Positions 145 to 6,944 of a DNA stretch of 6,944 nt are shown piece by piece; positions within the stretch are counted from its first letter, which is position 1; every line of letters begins with the position of its first letter. The notes beneath the pieces are model-generated. The model was given only the letters and a program-made list of their open reading frames with translations. It was not told the DNA's origin and did no database searches. Source of the DNA: a virus; the IMG/VR virus record IMGVR_UViG_3300022693_002623, positions 1 through 6,944 of that record, one strand, 5' to 3'. The position numbers and the translations under genes are program-made.

Positions 145-892
145 CGAAACGCACCGTCATTACGGCTATGACGTGTTTTTTATTACGCAGGAGCCCGGCT
201 TGCTGGACAGCCACGCCCGCAAGATCGCAAACGAACACTTTCACTACGTGCGCCCGTTCCAAGCGCCGATGATCACCGAGTATCACTGCGGTACCGGCGC
301 CATCTCACCGAGCAACCGCGCCGATCTGGCCCGCTGCTCGCAGAAGCGCAAGCCGCTCCCTAAAGCGGCGTTCGGCCTGTATCACTCCGCCGAGGTCCAT
401 ACCCATAAGTTTAACCCGCCCAAGATGCTGTACATCCTGGGCGCCCTGGTCCTCACGGCTGCGGGTGCGTGGTGGTGGTTCTTTAGCAGTTTCAGCATTG
501 GCGGCGTAGATCCCGACGCTGCAAAACAGACGGTCGAGCAGGGCGTACCCATGGCGCCAGGCACAATGCCCACAGAGTCACCCGGCTCCTGGGCCGAGCT
601 ACTCACTCCCGCCGTCTCCGGCGTTCCGTATACCGCCCCGATCTACCGCGAGGCCGCTATGAACGTCCAGGCGGTGCCGGTGGTGTCCGGCTGCATGGCC
701 TTCCGCAATAATCAATCTGATTGCCGCTGCTACACCCAGCAGGGCACTCGAATTCGTGATATGTCCCTGTCGATGTGCAAGCGCGCCCTGGCCGACGGCG
801 TTTTTAACCATCTTGCCAGCGCCGATCCTGCTCCGTCGCGTGCGCCTGACGAGTCGCCTCGCTACAATTCCGGTTCTGATGATCGGGGCTGA
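1..892 (+). CDS. zot: Zot/pI-like phage assembly ATPase, C-terminal about 297 codons (continuation of 6679..6944 across the circular junction)
   Basis: The open frame runs from base 2 to the stop at 890-892. The TTG at 14 used by the ORF track is an internal Leu codon. Contains VVIIDEAQ (Walker B-like), a TM segment MLYILGALVLTAAGAWWWFF, and a C-terminal Cys motif (CMAFRNNQSDCRCYTQQGT) as seen in Zot-family pI proteins. Confidence 0.9.
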   Translation, partial: GWFELTDDQAKDWRQNVPEGAVVIIDEAQQLFPVRPSSRPVPDGLTALETHRHYGYDVFFITQEPGLLDSHARKIANEHFHYVRPFQAPMITEYHCGTGAISPSNRADLARCSQKRKPLPKAAFGLYHSAEVHTHKFNPPKMLYILGALVLTAAGAWWWFFSSFSIGGVDPDAAKQTVEQGVPMAPGTMPTESPGSWAELLTPAVSGVPYTAPIYREAAMNVQAVPVVSGCMAFRNNQSDCRCYTQQGTRIRDMSLSMCKRALADGVFNHLASADPAPSRAPDESPRYNSGSDDRG

Positions 893-1022
893 GCGGCCTT
901 AATGCGATAATCGAATAAGCGGGAAATCATTGACATTTCCAAAACTACATATAAGTCGCTGTTGTTAAACGACTTTTCAAAAGTCAATACCTTTTATCTT
1001 ATTCTAAAAACGCATAACGCCT

Positions 1023-1077
1023 GCAAGCTGCGGGCGAGGGGAGGCGGAGGAACGACGCACCCCCGCCCGCTGCTTGC
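1023..1077. other. Long GC-rich imperfect hairpin in the main intergenic region (candidate packaging signal or minus-strand origin)
   Basis: GCAAGCTGCGGGCGAGGGG (1023-1041) pairs with CCCCCGCCCGCTGCTTGC (1060-1077). That gives 17 bp with one T-T mismatch and one bulged A, and an 18-nt loop. It follows a 28-35% GC stretch (hand count, 901-1020) containing small palindromes: GGAAAT/ATTTCC at 922-940 and GACTTTTCAAAAGTC at 971-985. Confidence 0.55.
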
Positions 1078-1094
1078 CGTTCCCCCGCGGTTGT

Positions 1095-1148
1095 CTAAAT
1101 CCCATATCTTGTGCGCCTGGCGTTAACCTGGCGCACCACATCTTGTGT
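1095..1148 (+). repeat. Hairpin-iteron element, copy A (candidate Rep origin or recombination site)
   Basis: Gapless alignment with 2342-2395 matches 45 of 54 positions, including a 23-nt perfect block (CTAAATCCCATATCTTGTGCGCC) and an 11-nt perfect block (ACATCTTGTGT). Internal hairpin: GTGCGCC (1111-1117) pairs with GGCGCAC (1130-1136). ATCTTGTG occurs on both flanks (1106-1113 and 1140-1147). Confidence 0.8.
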
Positions 1149-1153
1149 TGGGG

Positions 1154-1480
1154 TTAAACGTCCAGCAGGTATTGCACTGGCGATCGGTGCTTCCGTTCCA
1201 GTTCCAGCTTGAGCTGCTCCACAATCCAGAGGCTCATCACGTCGCCGGCGCTGTATTCGACCCCGGCCGGGTCGATCAGGAAGCTTCCGCGCATCCGCCA
1301 GTGTGACCAGGTCGGGCAGCTGGTCGGTAAGCGGCCGTCTCGATGGATGGTTAGCAGTTGGAGTGCCCAGGCCGGTGCCTGGTTAGATCTGAGGTATTTC
1401 CGTGCTGTGCTGACGTGGACGCCGATCAGGTCGGCGATTTGGCGGGGGTGCAGCCCGAAGGCCGCTGTTCTGAAGTCCAT
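1154..1480 (-). CDS. Small DNA-binding regulator with N-terminal HTH (resembles DUF3653-type phage proteins from memory)
   Basis: 108-aa ORF. Strong SD GGGAGA lies 5 nt upstream of the ATG (minus strand, 1486-1491). HTH-like segment QIADLIGVHVSTARKYL. The tail WSHWRMRGSFLIDPAGVEYSAGDV resembles the W-x-W-R-x-R-G-x-L-x-x-P-x-G motif. Starts 23 nt downstream of the preceding minus-strand ORF, so the two likely form an operon. Confidence 0.7.
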   Translation of the reverse strand: MDFRTAAFGLHPRQIADLIGVHVSTARKYLRSNQAPAWALQLLTIHRDGRLPTSCPTWSHWRMRGSFLIDPAGVEYSAGDVMSLWIVEQLKLELERKHRSPVQYLLDV

Positions 1481-1503
1481 ATCGATCTCCCGTTACCGGA
1501 AGA

Positions 1504-1893
1504 TCATGCTACTTGACGCTTTAACCCGGGCCGATCCTCTATTGAACATAATATACAGAGTCGATCCGTCAGCCAGATCCCATAGGGCAGGGCAATCAAG
1601 CCAAAAATCGTTGCAGCTGAATGGCTTACGGCTCGAAATCGGGCCTTCCACATTTCAACCCGCTCAGGGTCCTCCGAGCGTTCCGCTCGCGCCAGCTCAC
1701 ATATCGCGATGACCTCTGCGGGATCCATTTCGATCACTTCCGCTATCTTCCATGCCGTTTCGTTGCTGAAGCCTGTCCCGCCCTTGATCGTAGAAATCGC
1801 CGCTTTCGTAAGGCCTAAGCGTTTCGCTGCTGCGTAATCGCTCGGAAGGCCAAGTTTTTCTCTGTACATCACGATCAGCTCATATGGCGTCAT
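1504..1893 (-). CDS. Cro/CI-type HTH repressor-like protein with a hydrophobic C-terminal segment
   Basis: 129-aa ORF. SD GAGAGGA lies 7 nt upstream of the ATG. HTH-like segment YAAAKRLGLTKAAISTIKGG. Transcribed divergently from the replication/structural operon, like inovirus immunity repressors. The C-terminal stretch AATIFGLIALPYGIWL is hydrophobic. Confidence 0.7.
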   Translation of the reverse strand: MTPYELIVMYREKLGLPSDYAAAKRLGLTKAAISTIKGGTGFSNETAWKIAEVIEMDPAEVIAICELARAERSEDPERVEMWKARFRAVSHSAATIFGLIALPYGIWLTDRLCILCSIEDRPGLKRQVA

Positions 1894-2003
1894 TCTGGCG
1901 TCCTCTCGGTGAGATGGTTCAATTATTCTTGACTACCCTTCCCCCTACAAGGTAAAAACCGTTTTAACCGGTTCAGAGACTCTGAACCAATAAGAAAAGG
2001 GGA
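1894..2003. promoter_or_regulatory. Divergent promoter/operator region between the repressor operon and the + strand operon
   Basis: + strand candidate: TTGACT (1929-1934), 18 nt, TAAAAA (1953-1958). Minus-strand candidate: TTGTAG (rc of 1945-1950), 17 nt, AATAAT (rc of 1922-1927). Palindromes: AAAAC-C-GTTTT (1955-1965), AACCGGTT (1966-1973), and a perfect 19-bp GGTTCAGAG-A-CTCTGAACC (1970-1988). An extra GGTTCA half-site sits at 1916-1921. Confidence 0.55.
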
Positions 2004-2009
2004 ATGGGG

Positions 2010-2192
2010 ATGACCGAACGCTGCCGCCTTTGCGATGAACCCGCCGAACTCGGGGATCTGTGCGTCGAGTGCGAAGACCGCGCTATCACTGATTCCACTG
2101 CCTCGCCATGTCCGTTGTTCTTTGACTATCAGACCCGTGTGCTCATCGGTTGGATTGCTTTGTGGGATCTCCGAAGGGAGCTGCGTCCATGA
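2010..2192 (+). CDS. Small Cys4 (CxxC-x8-CxxC) zinc-ribbon-like protein, first gene of the + operon
   Basis: The ORF track starts at 2004. The in-frame ATG at 2010 has better spacing to the SD AAGGGGA (ending 2003). Sequence: MTERCRLCDEPAELGDLCVECEDR... The stop overlaps the next start (ATGA at 2189-2192). Confidence 0.55.
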   Translation: MTERCRLCDEPAELGDLCVECEDRAITDSTASPCPLFFDYQTRVLIGWIALWDLRRELRP

Positions 2193-2590
2193 TCGTCAAG
2201 CTTTCGCCCTACATGTCCCCCTTTGCCCCGCCCGCTGAGCCCGGCGTTTACTGGCTCGGCCTGGAACACCAGGGCTACGCGCTCCACGACGGTCACGTCG
2301 TCGCCTGGATCGAGCGCCGCCGAGCTAAGCTGGCTGCCGCGCTAAATCCCATATCTTGTGCGCCAGGCAGCTGCCAGGTGCACAACATCTTGTGTCCATC
2401 TTCGGAAAGCGTCGAGTTGGTATTGGCCTCCTGCGGCCTCGGCCACATGGCCGCGCCTCGCCGGCCTCAGCGTTTCAGCCATGACCCCGATTTTCTACAC
2501 GCGCTGGCGTCGGATGGCATTCGGGCCGCAGGCCGTAGGGTAGGGCGTGAGCCTGCCCGGCCTCGCCGGCAGCAGGAGCGCCGCTCATGA
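2189..2590 (+). CDS. Hypothetical protein (133 aa). Repeat copy B is embedded in its coding sequence
   Basis: The internal ATG at 2189 in the 2150..2590 ORF is preceded by SD GAAGGGAG (2173-2180) and overlaps the upstream stop as ATGA. The N-terminal about 50 aa look protein-like (MIVKLSPYMSPFAPPAEPGVYWLGLEHQGYALHDGHVVAWIERRR). The C-terminal half is Arg/Pro/Ala-rich and low in complexity. Confidence 0.45.
   Translation: MIVKLSPYMSPFAPPAEPGVYWLGLEHQGYALHDGHVVAWIERRRAKLAAALNPISCAPGSCQVHNILCPSSESVELVLASCGLGHMAAPRRPQRFSHDPDFLHALASDGIRAAGRRVGREPARPRRQQERRS
2342..2395 (+). repeat. Hairpin-iteron element, copy B
   Basis: Same architecture as copy A. GTGCGCC (2358-2364) pairs with GGTGCAC (2377-2383) with one G-T wobble. 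The inner stem is GGC/GCC. ATCTTGTG occurs at 2353-2360 and 2387-2394. Confidence 0.8.
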
Positions 2591-3027
2591 AGCGCCGCGA
2601 TCCGATCCCGCACCTTATCGCCGTAGGCGATGACAGGCCGCAGAACGCCGCTGAACAGCGCACAGGCGTTTCACGGCCGTTACCTCGCCCCCGGTCCCCC
2701 TGGGACCCGCACGGCCCCCAGACGGCCTCACAGCGCACGCTGGCGCGATTCCGGGCAGCCCGGCGACCCGCTGCCGCACCGAACGGGAATCCCCGCCCTG
2801 AACAACGCCTTTCACGGCCCAGCAGCTCTCACCAGGTCGAGCTGCAACTCGATTTGTTCCCCACCCCGGTGTCTTCCCCCGAGTCTCCCACCGGGGCTTT
2901 TTCTTCTGCCGATCGGCACGATCGGCAAGGGGCGGTCCTTGTAACACCGCCCCTTTGTCTCATGAGTGAGACTTCCACCGACCGTTTGGACAGTACTTCC
3001 GACTGTCCAGGGGGTGACCGCGAATGA
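2587..3027 (+). CDS. Hypothetical Pro/Arg-rich protein (146 aa). Coding status and frame uncertain
   Basis: Has ATGA overlaps at both ends (2587-2590 with the upstream ORF, 3024-3027 with rep). However, the product is low-complexity, the region is very GC-rich, and ORFs of similar length exist in another + frame (2630..2944) and on the minus strand. Confidence 0.3.
   Translation: MKRRDPIPHLIAVGDDRPQNAAEQRTGVSRPLPRPRSPWDPHGPQTASQRTLARFRAARRPAAAPNGNPRPEQRLSRPSSSHQVELQLDLFPTPVSSPESPTGAFSSADRHDRQGAVLVTPPLCLMSETSTDRLDSTSDCPGGDRE
2927..2972 (+). terminator. Tandem hairpins about 50-100 nt upstream of rep (terminator/attenuator-like, or an ssDNA origin structure)
   Basis: Perfect 9-bp stem AAGGGGCGG (2927-2935) / CCGCCCCTT (2947-2955) with an 11-nt loop, followed by TGTCT. 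A second hairpin GTCTCA-TGAG-TGAGAC (2957-2972) follows immediately. The palindrome GCCGATCGGC lies at 2908-2917. Confidence 0.35.
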
Positions 3028-4046
3028 TGATCGACTGGGTCACCATCCGGGTGCCGTACGAGGAGCTCAGCGATCACGCCAGGGCCGTCTGCCTGACTAT
3101 TGGCGACCGGATCACCCGCTACTGCCCCCAGACAGGTGATGAACGCTGGACGTCCGCTGCTTGGGACAGCATCCGGAGCGATTCTCACCAGATCGCGCTG
3201 AAAGCCGGCGGGGCCGAACTCTGGATTCAGGGGTCACCCGCAAGGGTCATCGGCAGAGGTGACGCCGTGTTTGGTGCCGGGGCGTCTGCCGCGCTCGATC
3301 TGCGTGGCTGCGCCGATCACATGATCAGGTGGGTGGCCGCCCATCTGGGCACCGATCTGCCCGGCCCGGAAGCCTGGATTCTGTCCCGCATCGATGTGAC
3401 CGAGAACTTGGCGCTTTCGAGTCTCGCTGAGGTGCGCCAGGCACTTTCGATCTTGCGGGAGTGCGAGGGTGGCCGTTACCGGGTCAGCCAGCAGGCAGGC
3501 GACACCGTGTACTGGTCGCATCGATCAAAGCACCGGGCGGGCAAGGCGTACGCCAAGGGCCCGCACCTGACGTACATGATGAAAAAACCCGACTACACCG
3601 GGTGCAACTACACGGCGCAAGAGATCGCGGATGCAAACCGCCTTTTGCGCCTGGAATTGAAGCTCGGGCGCGCATGGTTCGAGCGCCATGACTGGCTGAC
3701 GTTAAAACCCGAGGAATTGAAGGCTGAGTGGAGCAGCTACTTCGAGCGAATGATTGGAGATGCGGATATGACTGGCGAAGACGAACTCAAGGAACGTGTT
3801 TTTCAGGTGGCTAAGACGGAAGGGCAGGCTAAAGCGGCGCTCGGGCTGTGGGCGCTTATTCAATCTCGCGGATGGGAAGCCGCCCGGGAATTACAGAGTC
3901 GTCCCACGTGGTACCGCAATTTAAAGATTCTCCGGGCTGCTGGCCTGGGTGATGCCGATCTGGCTAAAGGTCAGGTCGTTCCGATCCGCAAGCGCATTAT
4001 CGAGGCGCAAGCGGTGACTTCCTGGGCGCAACTGCACGCCGCTTAA
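3024..4046 (+). CDS. Rolling-circle replication initiation protein (inovirus gene II-like; Rep_trans/CRI-like)
   Basis: 340-aa ORF. The N-terminus MMIDWVTIRVPY and the Tyr motif GDTVYWSHRSKHRAGKAYAKG (Y-x-x-x-R-S...K-x-Y-x-K) match my recollection of these Rep families. It sits directly upstream of the ssDNA-binding gene. SD-like GGGGGTGA lies at 3010-3017. Confidence 0.8.
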   Translation: MMIDWVTIRVPYEELSDHARAVCLTIGDRITRYCPQTGDERWTSAAWDSIRSDSHQIALKAGGAELWIQGSPARVIGRGDAVFGAGASAALDLRGCADHMIRWVAAHLGTDLPGPEAWILSRIDVTENLALSSLAEVRQALSILRECEGGRYRVSQQAGDTVYWSHRSKHRAGKAYAKGPHLTYMMKKPDYTGCNYTAQEIADANRLLRLELKLGRAWFERHDWLTLKPEELKAEWSSYFERMIGDADMTGEDELKERVFQVAKTEGQAKAALGLWALIQSRGWEAARELQSRPTWYRNLKILRAAGLGDADLAKGQVVPIRKRIIEAQAVTSWAQLHAA

Positions 4047-4063
4047 AGATAGGTAGAGACGTT

Positions 4064-4351
4064 ATGAAAATTGAAATTATCAAAGGCCATGAGCAGCCCA
4101 TCTCCCGGATGATCACTACTCAGACTGGTCAGAAAACGATTCACGAACAAACCGCCTACGCACACATGGGCGGCGCTTTTCCCGTGGAATTTAAAATTCC
4201 TCTGAACAGCCACGGCGACGCCTACCCAGTAGGCGAGTACACCCTGCACCCCGGTTCGTTCAGCGTTAACCGCTTCGGCAGTCTTGAGATTAATCGTTTC
4301 GAGATTCGCCTTGTCGCTGAAAAGTCCCTGTCAGCGGCTAAGACTGCGTGA
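4064..4351 (+). CDS. ssDNA-binding protein (inovirus gene V-like)
   Basis: 95 aa, immediately downstream of rep. The sequence pattern (AYAHMGGAFPVEFKIPL...YPVGEYTLHPGSFSVNRFGSLEI) is typical of small OB-fold gene V proteins. Confidence 0.75.
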   Translation: MKIEIIKGHEQPISRMITTQTGQKTIHEQTAYAHMGGAFPVEFKIPLNSHGDAYPVGEYTLHPGSFSVNRFGSLEINRFEIRLVAEKSLSAAKTA

Positions 4352-4530
4352 TTTTCGCCAAGCGGAGCGCGGAGGGGCTTTGCCCCGGAGGTCCGAGGGA
4401 CCGTTACCCGTATGGGATGAGACCCAGGCTCAGCGATGTTATGCGCCCTGTGGGTTTCCCGCACGGCTCAGTTACAGAGTAGGGCCCGCTCCGCAGGACG
4501 GACACAACCGTTTCAGAAACAGGAAAAAAA
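4352..4530 (+). other. Structured non-coding spacer between the gV-like gene and the coat module
   Basis: No credible ORF. Three short GC stems with 3-nt loops: GGGGC-TTT-GCCCC (4374-4386), GGTCC-GAG-GGACC (4390-4402), TGTGGG-TTT-CCCGCA (4449-4463, one G-T). They are enclosed by an 8-nt complement, GCGGAGCG (4362-4369) / CGCTCCGC (4487-4494). Confidence 0.5.
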
Positions 4531-4734
4531 ATGGAATTAATAGCGTGTGATGGTGAATGGCAACAAGGCCCCGATGGGTCAGCTATTTGTTCTGGCACGC
4601 TTCAGGTCGTCCCCGGTGGTGGTCCTTTTGGTTTGCCACCGATGACGTACGACGATGCCAATATGCTTCTAGCCTCTATCGGCATCCTTTGGGCTGCGGT
4701 GTTCTGTGTTCGGCAGGCTCGCAGATTATTTTAA
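4531..4734 (+). CDS. Small membrane-anchored protein, candidate minor coat protein (g7/g9 position)
   Basis: 67 aa. AGGA plus an A-run lies upstream of the ATG. C-terminal TM segment MLLASIGILWAAVFCV is followed by the basic tail RQARRLF. Located just upstream of the major coat gene. Confidence 0.55.
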   Translation: MELIACDGEWQQGPDGSAICSGTLQVVPGGGPFGLPPMTYDDANMLLASIGILWAAVFCVRQARRLF

Positions 4735-4753
4735 CCTCGCGTGGAGAAACGTC

Positions 4754-4885
4754 ATGGATTTTACCGGCGTTGATACTGCGATCACCGGTGCACTCACCGA
4801 CCTGTCTCCGATTGGTCTGGCTGTGGTGACTGTGATTGCAGGCATCTGGGCGTTCCGGCAAGTCAAGAGCATGCTGGGACGTTAA
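4754..4885 (+). CDS. Major coat protein (g8p-like, 43 aa, no cleavable signal peptide, Pf3-like architecture)
   Basis: Hand translation: MDFTGVDTAITGALTDLSPIGLAVVTVIAGIWAFRQVKSMLGR. It has an acidic N-terminus, a hydrophobic core and a basic C-terminus. SD GGAGA (4743-4747) lies 6 nt upstream. A strong terminator follows immediately, as after gene VIII in Ff phages. It is below the ORF-track length cutoff. Confidence 0.8.
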   Translation: MDFTGVDTAITGALTDLSPIGLAVVTVIAGIWAFRQVKSMLGR

Positions 4886-4891
4886 TCAGGG

Positions 4892-4915
4892 TGGCCCCTT
4901 CGGGGGCCATTTTTA
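4892..4915 (+). terminator. Rho-independent terminator after the major coat gene
   Basis: TGGCCCC (4892-4898), TTCG loop, GGGGCCA (4903-4909), then TTTTTAT. Confidence 0.85.
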
Positions 4916-4949
4916 TCTCCGAGCGACTACCGGTCTTTGGGAGATAAAA

Positions 4950-6368
4950 ATGGGAGGTGTTTATGGAAGGGGATTTTGGTCCGTGGCTTTACTTCTTCGT
5001 TGTGCTGGTTTCGCTGTGGGGCTTGCTCTCAGTTCGTTAGCAAATGCACAGACCACGGAGTTTTCCGGGATTATTCAAGCCACTTCATGCGATCCCAGTG
5101 AAACTGATAATGTTCCTGAAAACTGTGATAGCGCCGAATTTCAGCTAGAGTTAGATGCTTTCTCGGTGCGGCAGGGTTGGACGCTAGTTGCTCAAGATGT
5201 TGTTAACGTCTCGTCGTTCGTTCGCAATTATCGCTTCTTTTTTTGCGAGGATATTAAGCCCGGTGGGTGGTATTTCACAGGGCAGCATTCCTTATCGCCG
5301 TTCAAGTGCGTTTACTCGCGTGAGCCGCCGCCGGAACCGGAGTGCTCCCTGTCGCCAGGCACTACAGCATGGTTCGATAGCAATCTTGCTTCCGTCTGCG
5401 CTCAAAACTGTGAATGGACAACGCCGCCCGGTGGCACGCTCGCTATATGCCTTGGGCCTGATGGCTCTGACTGCCGTTACACTCGCAAATACACAAGTCA
5501 GGACCAGTACTGTGAAAACCCTTCCGGTCAGCCTGAGCCCGTTCCTAAGTCAACGTTCGAGGAATACACCGACGAAGACGGCTGTTATTACGACACTAAT
5601 GGCCAAAAGTTTTGTTCAATCCCTTCGGACAGCCCCTGCCCGAATTACGTGACTATCGAGGGAACTAAGTACTGTCGCGGAGCCGAACCCGACGACGGCG
5701 AACCGGACCCGCTTCCCGATCACGATAGCGACGGTGACGGAATCCCTGATCGCCAGGACGATAACCCCGATGATCCCGACGCCGATGGCGACGGCACGCC
5801 AGACGGGGAGCAGGACGGTGACGGTAACGGGATACCTGACGGCGATCCCGGCGGCATAGCCGACGATGGCGAAGGCGACGGCAACGAACCCGGCGACGGT
5901 TATCACGACGGTGGCACCTGCGAACCAGACGAGCGCGTAGAACCGGAGTGCTCCGAAAACATGGACCCGATTCAGTGCGCCCTGGCGATCGAGCTTTTCC
6001 ACGTTCGTTGCGATGCCACGATGGAACACGCTGACTTCATCGGTGACGAGGAATATCTCGAAGGCCCCTCGATCACCAGCGGCGAAGACGGCGACGGTGA
6101 CGGCCAGCCGGACAACGCCATTCCCACAGCGTCGTTAGACGCTAGCACCGTGGTGTCTGGCCTCTCCGAGGACACCATCAGTTTCGGGAACCTCGCTTGT
6201 CCCGCCGACAAAACCTTCTCGATGCCGGGCGCTTTCGGCGGCTCGTTCACCCTGTCCTGGGAGCCGATCTGCGACTGGGCCGCGATGGTCCGGCCGATCG
6301 TTATCGCCCTCGGCTACCTCATGTCCGCGCTGATCATCCTGCGCAAATTCTCCGGAGGATCTGACTGA
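4950..6368 (+). CDS. Adsorption / minor coat protein (g3p-like, 472 aa): signal peptide, Cys-rich N-terminal domains, acidic D/G/P repeat linker, C-terminal membrane anchor
   Basis: The start is moved from 4836 to the in-frame ATG at 4950, because 4836-4949 overlaps the coat gene and its terminator. SD GGGAGA lies 5 nt upstream. Signal peptide: MGGVYGRGFWSVALLLRCAGFAVGLALSSLANA|QT. About 20 Cys residues. Repeats such as DSDGDGIPD, DADGDGTPD and DGDGNGIPD. C-terminal TM segment IVIALGYLMSALIIL followed by RKF. Confidence 0.8.
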   Translation: MGGVYGRGFWSVALLLRCAGFAVGLALSSLANAQTTEFSGIIQATSCDPSETDNVPENCDSAEFQLELDAFSVRQGWTLVAQDVVNVSSFVRNYRFFFCEDIKPGGWYFTGQHSLSPFKCVYSREPPPEPECSLSPGTTAWFDSNLASVCAQNCEWTTPPGGTLAICLGPDGSDCRYTRKYTSQDQYCENPSGQPEPVPKSTFEEYTDEDGCYYDTNGQKFCSIPSDSPCPNYVTIEGTKYCRGAEPDDGEPDPLPDHDSDGDGIPDRQDDNPDDPDADGDGTPDGEQDGDGNGIPDGDPGGIADDGEGDGNEPGDGYHDGGTCEPDERVEPECSENMDPIQCALAIELFHVRCDATMEHADFIGDEEYLEGPSITSGEDGDGDGQPDNAIPTASLDASTVVSGLSEDTISFGNLACPADKTFSMPGAFGGSFTLSWEPICDWAAMVRPIVIALGYLMSALIILRKFSGGSD

Positions 6369-6679
6369 TGCCCGCTTTCCTGCAAACCCTCGGTGTTTGG
6401 CTGTTCGGCGCGATCAGCGGCATGGTTGGCCGTGTGCTGGTCTCCCTTGGTATGGGCGTCGTCGCTTATACCGGCGTCGTCGAACTTGGCGACCAGCTGG
6501 TTAACCTGGTCAGCCAGCACTTCGGCGCCGCCTCCGATGTTTTAGCCCTGGCCAGTATCGCCGGTGTCGATGTGTTCATCAGTCTGGTGATATCCGCCCA
6601 CCTTGGTCTGCTGGCCTGGATCATGGTTGTCAGCGGTTTCAAGCGCCTGTCGTTCATGGCCGGGCAGGGCGCTGAATAA
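6368..6679 (+). CDS. g6p-like minor coat / membrane protein (DUF2523-like)
   Basis: 103 aa with several hydrophobic segments. TGATG overlap with the g3-like stop and TAATG overlap with the zot start. The position between g3 and pI is conserved in inoviruses. Confidence 0.7.
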   Translation: MPAFLQTLGVWLFGAISGMVGRVLVSLGMGVVAYTGVVELGDQLVNLVSQHFGAASDVLALASIAGVDVFISLVISAHLGLLAWIMVVSGFKRLSFMAGQGAE

Positions 6680-6944
6680 TGTTCGCCCTGGTCACCGGAA
6701 CACCGGGCGCCGGCAAGACGTCCAGCACGTTGCTCCGCTTTAAGGACGTAAAGAATCGCCCAGTGTTTTACAGGGGTATCCGGGATTTGAGCCCAGACCT
6801 CGGCTGGTTCGAGTTGACCGATGATCAAGCGAAGGACTGGCGTCAGAACGTTCCTGAGGGCGCAGTCGTTATTATCGACGAAGCGCAGCAGCTGTTCCCG
6901 GTACGTCCTTCCAGTCGCCCGGTACCCGATGGTTTAACCGCGCT
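6679..6944 (+). CDS. zot: Zot/pI-like assembly ATPase, N-terminal part (open at the window end, continues at base 145 via the repeat)
   Basis: Hand translation: MFALVTGTPGAGKTSSTLLRFKDVKNRPVFYRGIRDLSPDLGWFELTDDQ... Walker A is GTPGAGKT. It is in frame with 14..892 (6814-6679 = 135). The full gene is 1,014 nt, encoding 337 aa. Confidence 0.92.
   Translation, partial: MFALVTGTPGAGKTSSTLLRFKDVKNRPVFYRGIRDLSPDLGWFELTDDQAKDWRQNVPEGAVVIIDEAQQLFPVRPSSRPVPDGLTA
6801..6944 (+). repeat. Terminal direct repeat, right copy (identical to 1-144)
   Basis: Base-by-base comparison shows 144/144 identity. Confidence 0.97.

What the first reader, a model, noticed from the sequence alone, without database searches (positions are those of the whole stretch)
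1095..2395. Two direct copies of a hairpin-plus-iteron element bracket the whole regulatory module, one of them inside an ORF
Elements at 1095-1148 and 2342-2395 align without gaps at 45 of 54 positions, with perfect 23-nt and 11-nt blocks. A chance match of that length in 6.8 kb is negligible. Both have the same architecture. CCA[T/C]ATCTTGTG runs into a 7-bp stem (GTGCGCC), then a single symmetric mismatch, an inner GG/CC stem, a divergent loop, the return arm, and a second ATCTTGTG. Loop sequences differ (CGTTAA versus AGCT) while the stems are kept. The two central CCWGG pentamers, 11 bp apart, co-vary: both CCTGG in copy A and both CCAGG in copy B. The copies share orientation, lie 1,247 bp apart, and enclose both minus-strand regulators, the divergent promoter, the Cys4 ORF and the 5' end of ORF 2189. 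Copy A sits where an inovirus plus-strand origin is expected. A second origin-like copy in direct orientation is unusual. In engineered f1 phage, duplicated origins let gene II protein start at one copy and terminate at the other, yielding sub-genomic circles. Here that would give a circle of about 1.25 kb carrying the immunity cassette and a circle of about 5.55 kb lacking it. Alternatives: paired operator sites for one of the HTH proteins, or recombination sites for cassette exchange of the immunity region.
Basis: partly seen in the sequence, partly recalled or inferred. Interest (0 to 1): 0.72.

Follow-up and report, generated by a model that had tools for sequence, protein, structure and literature searches.

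The report
Conserved palindromic box pair, not origin
The two 54-base repeats are real and are conserved in related marine filamentous phages, but they are most likely an optional protein-recognition element next to the phage's integration genes, because the replication origin is a different, better-conserved double hairpin just upstream of the Rep gene.

Summary
The repeat is real: 45 of 54 ungapped matches, against a best of 34 in simulated sequence. The window is a circular 6,800-bp XerCD-integrating inovirus.

The origin reading fails. Every relative with this Rep family carries a double hairpin at 2929-2972. It shows strong compensatory changes and has the layout of the M13 core origin. 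The repeat is missing from many of these relatives, including complete circular genomes. It is also not the attP site (dif-like, 1541-1568). It does not follow the immunity type of the repressor, does not mark cassette-exchange breakpoints, and is not a canonical terminator.

Copy A is syntenic in about 15 relatives, in the zot/xafT-like intergenic region. Copy B is exactly 18 codons inserted in frame into the conserved gene orf2189. Only one sublineage has it, it evolves faster than A, and one relative has mostly deleted it.

The invariant positions form two 14-bp dyad boxes (CACAA-NATN-TTGTG) 34 bp apart, with no base-pair covariation. I read this as a dispensable protein-binding element, possibly for the HTH of the XafT-like protein. 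The function is not shown.

The parts
1095..1148 (+). Copy A of the 54-nt element, in the intergenic region between zot/pI (ends 892) and the stop of the xafT-like gene (1154).
   Evidence: repeat; syntenic homologues in about 15 related genomes, usually 5-6 nt from the xafT-like stop codon; hairpin z = -4.4.
1100..1113 (.). Box L of copy A, TCCCATATCTTGTG. It is a degenerate 14-bp dyad; type-2 relatives have CACAATATCTTGTG here.
   Evidence: invariant positions C8, A12, T13, T15, G17, G19.
1111..1136 (.). GC-rich central palindrome of copy A: GTGCGCC(T)GG, CGTTAA, CC(T)GGCGCAC.
   Evidence: fold. The GTGC/GCAC core is invariant in 16-18 of 18 variants.
1134..1147 (.). Box R of copy A, CACCACATCTTGTG (14-bp dyad, 1 mismatch to CACAA-NATN-TTGTG).
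   Evidence: 3 matches in the window against 0.2 expected; dyad positions are kept in 16-18 of 18 variants.
2342..2395 (+). Copy B of the element. It is exactly 18 codons (LNPISCAPGSCQVHNILC) in frame inside orf2189.
   Evidence: 2342 = 2189 + 153; homologues of orf2189 in L053 and L063 lack it. L061/P0124 has a 69-nt in-frame deletion that removes most of it. There are five sequence variants of copy B.
2347..2360 (.). Box L of copy B, TCCCATATCTTGTG.
2381..2394 (.). Box R of copy B, CACAACATCTTGTG (a perfect match to CACAA-NATN-TTGTG).
1154..1480 (-). XafT-like gene (N-terminal HTH plus DUF3653). It is the neighbour of copy A and the candidate binding protein.
   Evidence: 10 of 10 homologues hit PF12375, best E 3.6e-8; the NCBIfam VC1465 Xer activation factor family aligns over residues 8-91, E 6e-7, below the curated cut-off.
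1541..1568 (.). dif-like attP: ATTGAACATAA, TATACA, GAGTCGATCCG. It lies between the two copies.
   Evidence: Prophage junctions fall here in L026, L006, L058, L059 and L066.
2189..2590 (+). orf2189, a conserved gene of unknown function that hosts copy B.
   Evidence: six homologue clusters; 40% identity to a gene in an Alcanivorax jadensis inovirus prophage that has a different Rep family.
2929..2972 (+). The plus-strand origin candidate, which is not part of the repeat. Hairpin 1 is GGGGCGGT, CCTTGTAAC, ACCGCCCC. Then comes TTT. Hairpin 2 is GTCTCA, TGAG, TGAGAC.
   Evidence: found upstream of Rep in every locus that includes that region; 97% of cells paired, 9/14 pairs with changes on both sides, 0/500 shuffles as good; z = -6.5; same layout as the M13 core origin.
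3024..4046 (+). Rep (PF05144 / TIGR01629 II/X family).

Best explanation
The repeat is a conserved but dispensable cis-element. It belongs to the intergenic and lysogeny region of one clade of marine XerCD-integrating inoviruses, and it is not the rolling-circle origin. Its constant part is two 14-bp dyad-symmetric boxes, consensus CACAA-NATN-TTGTG, whose centres lie 34 bp apart on either side of a GC-rich and usually palindromic spacer. I infer that it works as double-stranded DNA, as a pair of binding sites for a dimeric sequence-specific protein. The best candidate is the N-terminal HTH of the XafT-like Xer activation factor. Its gene ends 5-6 nt from copy A, and its partner site attP lies between copies A and B. 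Binding could hold the activator on phage DNA near attP, or could regulate its gene. Copy A is the ancestral, strongly constrained copy. Copy B is a secondary copy that entered the conserved gene orf2189 as exactly 18 in-frame codons in one sublineage. It has since drifted, mainly in its centre. What is shown: the repeat is real; it is conserved and syntenic; copy B is an in-frame insertion; the repeat is separate from the origin, from attP and from the immunity operators. What is inferred: that a protein binds it, which protein, and what binding achieves.
For: (1) Twenty-one of 56 columns are invariant across 18 distinct variants, although the flanking proteins are only 42-48% identical between the window and L005-type phages. 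(2) The invariant positions fall into two dyads with an invariant A-T centre. In box R the symmetric positions are kept in 16-18 of 18 variants. The box consensus matches 3 times in the window against 0.2 expected, and the two best matches are the two R boxes. (3) The long hairpin shows no covariation: 76% of cells paired, no better than shuffles. Type-1 elements carry six non-compensated changes that destroy the outer stem, yet the box sequences are kept. Hairpin stability shows no +/- strand asymmetry, and copy B folds no better than shuffles. Because each box is itself palindromic, two direct copies form a long inverted repeat automatically, which accounts for the hairpin look. (4) The element type follows the adjacent xafT-like clade and not the HTH_3 immunity type. 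Three repressor types with three different promoter regions share the same type-1 element. (5) The xafT-like proteins keep an invariant putative recognition helix (T25, R27, R31). XafT of TLCphi has an HTH with no assigned DNA target (PMC6744903), and the DUF3653 domain of PSB15 binds a phage DNA hairpin (bioRxiv 10.1101/2024.03.19.585677). (6) The real origin is elsewhere.
Against: Adjacency alone would make the element and xafT co-vary, so point 4 is weak support. Phages whose XafT-like HTH is nearly identical lack the element: L006/L084 compared with L005, L053 compared with L005, and L063-65 compared with L026. So does L011. The site therefore cannot be required for XafT function. All four xafT-bearing lineages with a Rep_trans-family Rep lack it, so its presence follows the phage backbone as much as it follows xafT. 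Box L is only a half-dyad in the window's own type. In type-2 and type-4 elements, two spacer positions do change in a compensatory way between the arms (L002), which a hairpin or cruciform would predict. No binding has been measured, and a 34-bp spacing across a GC-rich palindrome is unusual for a simple operator pair.
Confidence: 0.38

Rival explanations
1. It is a single-strand DNA signal. The element folds as a hairpin in the packaged plus strand and serves as a complementary (minus) strand origin or as a packaging signal. Copy B would be a spare copy.
For: Every variant can form a stem of at least 9-10 bp. All copies have the same orientation. Copy A sits in the intergenic region beside other structured modules. 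In the zot/xafT spacer, every xafT-bearing PF05144 phage has this element, an AT-rich hairpin module, or both, and never neither, as if the two were interchangeable. Packaging hairpins of Xanthomonas inoviruses lie inside coding regions and are bound by a DUF3653 protein (bioRxiv 10.1101/2023.12.30.573655 and 10.1101/2024.03.19.585677).
Against: There is no covariation and no strand asymmetry. Copy B is no more stable than shuffles. L005 and L006 share about 88%-identical morphogenesis and Rep genes, yet only L005 has the element, which argues against a packaging signal. A GC-rich long hairpin shared with Rep_trans inoviruses is a better packaging candidate. The stem does not fit the published Xanthomonas consensus GGX(A/-)CCG(C/T)G.
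Confidence: 0.2
2. Both copies are Rep recognition and nick sites (secondary origins), so Rep can start at one and stop at the other and release 1.25-kb and 5.55-kb circles.
For: ATCTTG resembles the CTTG motif of superfamily-I nick sites (recalled; also cited for phiLf in bioRxiv 10.1101/2023.12.30.573655). The copies are direct repeats. In prophages L058, L059 and L066 they bracket the origin-to-zot block. Among xafT-bearing phages the element is found only with PF05144 Rep.
Against: A separate origin with the Ff layout and strong covariation accompanies Rep in all relatives. The element is absent from more than 10 Rep-bearing lineages, including the complete circles L007 and L011. The element stays the same while the putative Rep-binding palindrome varies (GTCTCA, GTCCCA, GTGCCA). 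The element's arms have no similarity to that palindrome. Among about 25 element copies in assemblies, none has a hybrid A/B junction.
Confidence: 0.05
3. It is a bidirectional transcription terminator or mRNA 3'-end stabiliser between the convergent zot and xafT-like genes. Copy B would be an internal attenuator upstream of Rep.
For: Copy A always lies between convergent genes. Where it is missing, a canonical hairpin with a T-run (L006, L011) or a GC hairpin (L007, L053, L063) fills the same gap. Type-2 elements have an A-rich 5' flank and a U-rich 3' flank on both strands.
Against: The terminator scan does not flag it. The window's type-1 copies have no U-tract. A terminator does not need 21 invariant positions across phages whose proteins are about 45% identical. 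The window already has a much stronger GC hairpin 20 nt away. An efficient terminator inside orf2189 would cut off Rep expression.
Confidence: 0.12
4. It is a small selfish palindromic element, like a MITE or a Rickettsia palindromic element (RPE). It copies itself within these phage genomes, and copy B is a recent in-frame insertion with no function.
For: The arms are conserved and the centre is variable. Distribution among close relatives is patchy. Copy B is a clean 54-nt in-frame insertion in a conserved gene, and one relative has partly deleted it. In L071 the order of the element relative to the AT-rich module is swapped.
Against: Only two insertion contexts are seen. Copy A is syntenic across deep divergence and nearly invariant within its type, loop included. 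There is no target-site duplication and no transposase. There is no sign of host-genome copies in the flanks examined, and the one weak hit lies inside an efflux-pump gene. Matches outside inoviruses are consistent with chance for the pattern used.
Confidence: 0.1
5. The copies are operators of the HTH_3 immunity repressor, or recombination sites that bound the exchangeable immunity cassette.
For: The two copies enclose the immunity region. Dyad boxes resemble Cro/CI-type operators (recalled).
Against: Three immunity types with different promoter-region repeats share the same element. Exchange breakpoints between the window and L066, L001, L003 and L004 lie at about 1494-1538, 1652, 1993, 2078 and 2177, not at 1095-1148 or 2342-2395. 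Most relatives have one copy only.
Confidence: 0.03

Closest known systems
Ff (f1/M13) plus-strand origin, and engineered or defective genomes with duplicated origins
   Same: The Rep is of the same Pfam family (PF05144). The idea that two direct origin copies give sub-genomic circles comes from this system.
   Different: The element that matches the Ff core origin in layout is 2929-2972: a nick-loop hairpin followed directly by a second palindrome. The repeat does not match it. The repeat is absent from many relatives that have this Rep.
RstR / dif-like attP / XafT lysogeny module of XerCD-integrating inoviruses (TLCphi XafT, 'CTX-I' inoviruses)
   Same: The gene order is the same: repressor, dif-like attP, HTH+DUF3653 protein convergent with zot. 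Prophage junctions fall at attP (PMC6744903; PMC12715192).
   Different: The papers I read describe no conserved DNA element next to xafT and no DNA target for its HTH. XerD activation by XafT was reported to be independent of DNA binding (PMC6744903). Several xafT-bearing relatives lack the element.
Packaging-signal hairpin of Xanthomonas phiLf-type inoviruses and its DUF3653 binding protein PSB15
   Same: Both are short GC-rich hairpins that can sit inside coding regions. The gene in the same genomic position encodes a DUF3653 protein that binds it (bioRxiv 10.1101/2023.12.30.573655 and 10.1101/2024.03.19.585677).
   Different: The Rep families differ: there is no detectable similarity to phiLf gII. 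The stem does not fit the published consensus. Here the protein also has an HTH. Close relatives with the same assembly genes lack the element.
14-bp dyad operators of lambdoid Cro/CI-type repressors, such as phage 434 ACAA-N6-TTGT (recalled from memory, not tested)
   Same: Both use ACAA/TTGT half-sites in a short perfect dyad, present in more than one copy.
   Different: The half-sites are 4 bp apart here, not 6. The boxes are not at a promoter and do not follow the immunity repressor type.
Rickettsia palindromic elements and other small palindromic repeats inserted in frame into genes (recalled from memory)
   Same: A short palindromic unit inserted in frame in a conserved protein-coding gene without breaking the ORF.
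   Different: There are only two sites per genome. One of them is ancient and syntenic, and there is no evidence of spread.

Membership tests
Plus-strand (rolling-circle) origin of a PF05144 Rep | Travels with the Rep gene in all relatives | tested here: not met
   The element is absent from L006, L007, L011, L013-L025, L027 and L084 although Rep is present. L007 and L011 are complete circles. The 2929-2972 double hairpin is present in every locus that includes the region upstream of Rep.
Plus-strand (rolling-circle) origin of a PF05144 Rep | Nick-loop hairpin followed directly by an initiator-binding palindrome, as in M13 | tested here: not met
   The M13 layout is reproduced by 2929-2972. 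The repeat has a different layout: two 14-bp boxes around a 20-bp spacer.
Plus-strand (rolling-circle) origin of a PF05144 Rep | Recognition sequence co-varies with Rep lineage | tested here: not met
   Hairpin 2 of the origin varies among lineages (5 of its 6 pairs change on both sides). The element arms are invariant across the same lineages.
Plus-strand (rolling-circle) origin of a PF05144 Rep | Nicked by Rep | not testable with these tools
   This needs an in vitro nicking assay.
XerCD attP / dif-like site | 11-6-11 architecture similar to host dif, with prophage junctions at the site | tested here: not met
   Junctions fall at 1541-1568, not at the repeats. The element has no dif-like arms when read directly.
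Operators of the HTH_3 immunity repressor | Sequence changes with immunity type, and the site lies at the divergent promoter | tested here: not met
   Three repressor types share one element type. Promoter regions carry their own repeats, for example GGTTCAGAGACTCTGAACC in the window.
Intrinsic (rho-independent) terminator | GC-rich stem, short loop and a U-tract directly after the stem | tested here: not met
   The scan of 800-3100 finds only 2881-2899. There is no U-tract after either copy in the window.
Structured single-strand element (conserved hairpin) | Base pairs kept through compensatory change | tested here: not met
   Only 3 single-cell double changes in 23 pairs; 76% of cells paired, no better than shuffles. 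Compare the origin, with 9 of 14 pairs and 0/500 shuffles.
Paired dyad protein-binding boxes | Invariant symmetric positions within each box, over-represented in the genome | tested here: met
   Box R symmetric positions are kept in 16-18 of 18 variants and the A-T centre is invariant in both boxes. There are 3 matches in the window against 0.2 expected. Box L is only a half-dyad in type 1.
Paired dyad protein-binding boxes | Bound by a specific protein | not testable with these tools
   This needs EMSA or footprinting.
XafT / DUF3653 Xer activation factors (the neighbouring gene 1154-1480) | HTH plus DUF3653 domain architecture | tested here: met
   PF12375 is hit by 10 of 10 homologues, best E 3.6e-8. 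The NCBIfam VC1465 family aligns over residues 8-91, E 6e-7, below the curated cut-off.
XafT / DUF3653 Xer activation factors (the neighbouring gene 1154-1480) | Gene lies next to a dif-like attP of an IMEX | tested here: met
   attP is 61 bp from the start codon, and the gene is the terminal gene of the prophages.
XafT / DUF3653 Xer activation factors (the neighbouring gene 1154-1480) | Activates XerD | not testable with these tools
   This needs a biochemical or genetic assay.
MITE / RPE-like mobile palindromic element | Many insertion sites, empty sites in close relatives, target-site duplication | tested here: inconclusive
   There are two contexts, plus a swapped module order in L071. Homologues of orf2189 without the insert are too diverged to define an empty site. 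No duplication is seen at the ends.
Known RNA families (Rfam 15) | Match to a covariance model | tested here: not met
   No hit at either copy, even at E up to 1.

The most novel reading that the evidence does not exclude
In the integrated prophage, copies B and A are direct repeats that bracket exactly the origin, Rep, coat and assembly block and exclude the split lysogeny module (L058, L059, L066). In the most novel reading, a nicking enzyme (Rep or a host HUH protein) cuts at ATCTTG/TG in both copies. This would let a single-copy prophage roll out a 5.55-kb infectious-type circle without XerCD excision and without the tandem arrays that CTXphi needs. The episome would also shed a 1.25-kb circle carrying the immunity and integration cassette.
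Probability: 0.04. Interest if true: 0.8.

Novelty: new variant of a known kind. Interest (0 to 1): 0.4.

Why it matters
Xer-exploiting filamentous phages move toxins and other cargo between bacteria. Their Xer activation factors (XafT family) carry an HTH domain that has no known DNA target. A conserved pair of dyad boxes beside the xafT-like gene, with a second copy on the far side of attP in one sublineage, gives a concrete sequence to test as that target, and so as a way to focus Xer activation on the phage's own attP.

Separately, this work locates the likely plus-strand origin for a large, uncultured group of marine inoviruses that have PF05144 Rep proteins. It also shows that a short palindromic cis-element can be carried in frame inside a phage gene. 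If the element turns out to be only a dispensable hairpin, the practical value is a caution. Repeats with hairpins in an inovirus intergenic region are not necessarily origins. Comparison across Rep-bearing relatives separates the two.

Tried and rejected
(1) attP or Xer site: rejected, because prophage junctions map to 1541-1568.

(2) Copy B drags along a remnant of the xafT 3' end (QYQLDA against QYLLDV*). A profile search of the six-frame translation found nothing. Flank alignments are marginal (score 18, p about 0.005-0.05) and are absent for other B variants. Inconclusive, so dropped.

(3) The '328-bp insertion relative to L004' reading: replaced. L004 simply lacks orf2189, and the true insertion is the 54-nt element within that gene.

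(4) Host REP-like repeat: the only hit in host flanks lies inside an RND efflux-pump gene, at E 0.007.

(5) Pattern hits outside inoviruses (tailed-phage contigs, a T4SS/relaxase region in L069/L074, AT-rich L070/L080). They resemble the element mostly at positions fixed by the search pattern or by palindromy, and their number is near the chance expectation. They were not used.

(6) CCWGG 'co-variation': not general across relatives.

(7) Strand asymmetry of hairpin stability: none found.

(8) Similarity to the phiLf origin and packaging signal: that Rep is unrelated and the stem consensus is not met.

(9) Near-identical and protein-level searches of the GenBank phage collection found nothing.

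(10) Solved structures for the XafT-like family: none.

(11) TAGCGA in the centre of some type-2 and type-3 elements recalls the CS-6 motif of ssoA origins (from memory). It is present in only 3 variants and was not pursued.
Full report
WHAT THE WINDOW IS. Bases 1-144 repeat at 6801-6944, so the window is one circular genome of 6,800 bp. It is an inovirus. Its genes are Rep of the II/X family (PF05144, 3024-4046), a gene V-type ssDNA-binding protein, coat B, a large pIII-like protein, pVI, and Zot/pI running across the join (6679..892). Two genes lie on the minus strand: an HTH_3 repressor (1504-1893) and a 108-aa HTH + DUF3653 protein (1154-1480). The nearest relatives are uncultured marine phages and prophages of Alcanivorax and Thalassospira. 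Nothing similar is in the GenBank phage collection.

THE OBSERVATION. The repeat is exactly as described: 45 of 54 ungapped matches, with perfect 23-nt and 11-nt blocks. The best match in 60 simulated genomes was 34. The hairpin anatomy and the four exact ATCTTGTG octamers are correct. The paired CCWGG 'co-variation' does not hold in relatives. Copy B's hairpin is not more stable than shuffled sequence (z = -1.8), whereas copy A's is (z = -4.4).

THE SURROUNDINGS: A KNOWN LYSOGENY MODULE. All ten homologues of the 108-aa protein hit DUF3653. NCBIfam aligns it end to end with the VC1465 Xer activation factor family, below the curated cut-off. That family is XafT of TLCphi (PMC6744903). A dif-like site, ATTGAACATAA-TATACA-GAGTCGATCCG, lies at 1541-1568 between the two minus-strand genes. 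Prophage-host junctions fall exactly there in L026, L006, L058, L059 and L066. The order repressor, attP, xafT, convergent with zot, is the arrangement described for 'CTX-I' inoviruses (PMC12715192). The repeat is therefore not the attachment site.

WHERE THE ORIGIN IS. In every locus that includes the region upstream of Rep (Rep 49-99% identical), a double hairpin lies 50-130 nt before the Rep start codon. In the window it is 2929-2972: GGGGCGGT, CCTTGTAAC, ACCGCCCC, then TTT, then GTCTCA, TGAG, TGAGAC. Across 20 distinct variants, 97% of cells are paired and 9 of 14 pairs show changes on both sides. No shuffle in 500 reaches any of the measures. The loop GTAAC and the CTT after the stem are invariant. 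The DNA fold has z = -6.5. The layout matches the M13 core origin read from NC_003287: GAGTCCAC, GTTCTTTAATA, GTGGACTC, followed directly by TTGTTCC, AAACT, GGAACAA. M13's initiator belongs to the same Pfam family. This sequence, not the repeat, is the element that behaves as the Rep origin.

DISTRIBUTION OF THE REPEAT ELEMENT. A profile of the element finds one copy in L002-L005, L008-L010, L012, L026, L054/55, L061, L071 and others. That copy always lies in the zot/xafT spacer and is usually 5-6 nt from the xafT stop. Two copies occur only in the window's sublineage: the window, L001/L076, L058, L059 and L066. Partial contigs L056, L060, L062, L067, L072 and L075 show copy B. The element is missing from three groups:
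- xafT-bearing relatives L006/L084 and L011, which have an AT-rich hairpin module there instead;
- all Rep-bearing relatives without the xafT module, including the complete circle L007;
- four xafT-bearing lineages that use a Rep_trans-family Rep, namely L053, L063-65, L086 and L088.
The element is therefore dispensable and limited to one clade.

COPY B IS AN IN-FRAME INSERTION. Position 2342 is 2189 + 153, so copy B is exactly 18 codons of orf2189. orf2189 is a real conserved gene, with six homologue clusters and a 40%-identical gene in an Alcanivorax jadensis prophage that has a different Rep family. The distant homologues lack the insert. L061 has lost most of it through a 69-nt in-frame deletion. 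Copy B exists in five variants whose centres differ while the flanks are 90-100% identical. Copy A is almost invariant within its type, including its loop. Copy A is thus the constrained copy and copy B is a tolerated secondary one.

WHAT IS CONSERVED IN THE ELEMENT. Eighteen distinct variants align without gaps, and 21 of 56 columns are invariant. A single long hairpin is not supported: 76% of cells are paired, no better than shuffles, with three isolated double changes. L005-type elements do form an 18-bp outer stem. The window's type has six uncompensated changes that abolish this stem, and it relies on an inner GC stem instead. Stability does not differ between strands. The invariant positions are explained instead by two 14-bp dyads, CACAA-NATN-TTGTG, at columns 6-19 and 40-53. 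In the window these are 1100-1113 and 1134-1147 in copy A, and 2347-2360 and 2381-2394 in copy B. Each has an invariant A-T centre. Two direct copies of a palindromic box are automatically an inverted repeat of each other. That accounts for the hairpin look without requiring a hairpin function.

WHO MIGHT BIND IT. The HTH_3 repressor is excluded. Three immunity types, each with its own promoter-region repeats, share one element type. Cassette-exchange breakpoints lie at about 1652-2177 and at attP, not at the repeats. Rep is unlikely, because the element does not change where the origin's second palindrome changes. The XafT-like HTH is the best remaining candidate. Its gene is adjacent, its clade matches the element type, and its helix has invariant T25, R27 and R31. 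No DNA target is known for any XafT (PMC6744903, PMC9226527). The case is weakened because near-identical HTHs occur in phages without the element. I put this reading at about 0.38. The rivals are an ssDNA signal (0.2), a terminator or RNA stabiliser (0.12), a selfish palindromic element (0.1), secondary Rep origins (0.05), and repressor operators or cassette-exchange sites (0.03).

WHAT REMAINS OF THE CIRCLE IDEA. In prophages, B and A are direct repeats around the whole origin-to-zot block. A start-stop mechanism would therefore yield a 5.55-kb phage-like circle from a single prophage. Nothing supports it: about 25 copies in assemblies include no hybrid junction, and the origin evidence points elsewhere. 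Only an experiment can exclude it.

VERDICT. The element has no described counterpart: there is no Rfam hit and no mention in the XafT, PSB15 or CTX-I papers I read. Even so, it is most simply a new variant of an ordinary kind of thing, a short protein-recognition or structural cis-element. Interest is moderate.

Noticed in passing
window 2929-2972: A double hairpin with an invariant GTAAC loop lies upstream of Rep in all relatives. It has strong covariation and the M13-like layout, and it is the likely plus-strand origin of this uncultured inovirus group.
   Followed up: yes
L055 (about 5307 and 5363, minus strand); L002, L003, L004, L026 just upstream of Rep: One Thalassospira contig carries two tandem copies of the origin hairpin 56 nt apart. 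Several relatives carry a second partial copy (3' half of hairpin 1 plus hairpin 2) just before the Rep ATG. These are true origin duplications, unlike the repeat under study.
   Followed up: partly
window 1541-1568: A dif-like attP with an XerD arm and central region matching host dif and a degenerate XerC arm. It overlaps the 3' end of the HTH_3 ORF, so integration changes the repressor's C-terminus.
   Followed up: yes
window 860-1022 (core 925-1003): An AT-rich module: ATTGACA, a small hairpin, then GTCAATACC. It is absent from L001, L003 and L004 but recurs in L002, L006, L011, L066 and L071, in a different order relative to the repeat element. It is a second optional, shuffling intergenic module of unknown function.
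   Followed up: partly
window 1021-1078: A very stable GC-rich hairpin with a G-run and a C-run (-27 kcal/mol, z = -5.6). Comparable long hairpins lie between zot and xafT in Rep_trans inoviruses (L053, L063-65) and at the zot 3' end of L005-L007. It is a candidate packaging signal or terminator.
   Followed up: partly
window 2881-2908: A terminator-like hairpin with a T-run lies inside orf2587, directly upstream of the origin. It is the only terminator-like site in 800-3100.
   Followed up: no
window 1504-2192 compared with L066, L001, L003, L004, L061, L005: There are at least three exchangeable immunity types (HTH_3 repressor plus promoter, with or without the Cys4 ORF) on otherwise near-identical backbones. 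Each type has its own promoter-region repeats, for example GGTTCAGAGACTCTGAACC at about 1970-1988 in the window.
   Followed up: partly
window 2189-2590 and L053 14199-14504, L063 8001-8360: orf2189 is a conserved small gene shared by inoviruses with two unrelated Rep families (PF05144 and Rep_trans). It always lies between the immunity region and Rep. No family is assigned.
   Followed up: partly
L058 6781-9063; L066 and L067 246-4437: CBASS-like operons (SAVED, DncV-like cyclase, E2/ThiF, JAB, Cap15) lie directly beside the integrated prophages at the dif region. They may be part of neighbouring IMEXs.
   Followed up: no
L063 500-13750: A tandem array of two copies of a Rep_trans inovirus prophage at dif, with three dif-like sites.
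   Followed up: no
window 4352-4530: A 179-nt non-coding stretch between ssb and the next ORF stays 96% identical to L004 although the ssb gene just upstream is replaced there. Its fold is not exceptional (z = -1.5).
   Followed up: partly
L069 6896-6943 and L074 8641-8688: A palindrome with the same arms (ATATCTTGTGC, 18 nt, GCACAAGATGTTGTGTT) sits between virB11-like and relaxase-like genes of a conjugative element. It is probably a chance product of the pattern search, but its position is oriT-like.
   Followed up: partly
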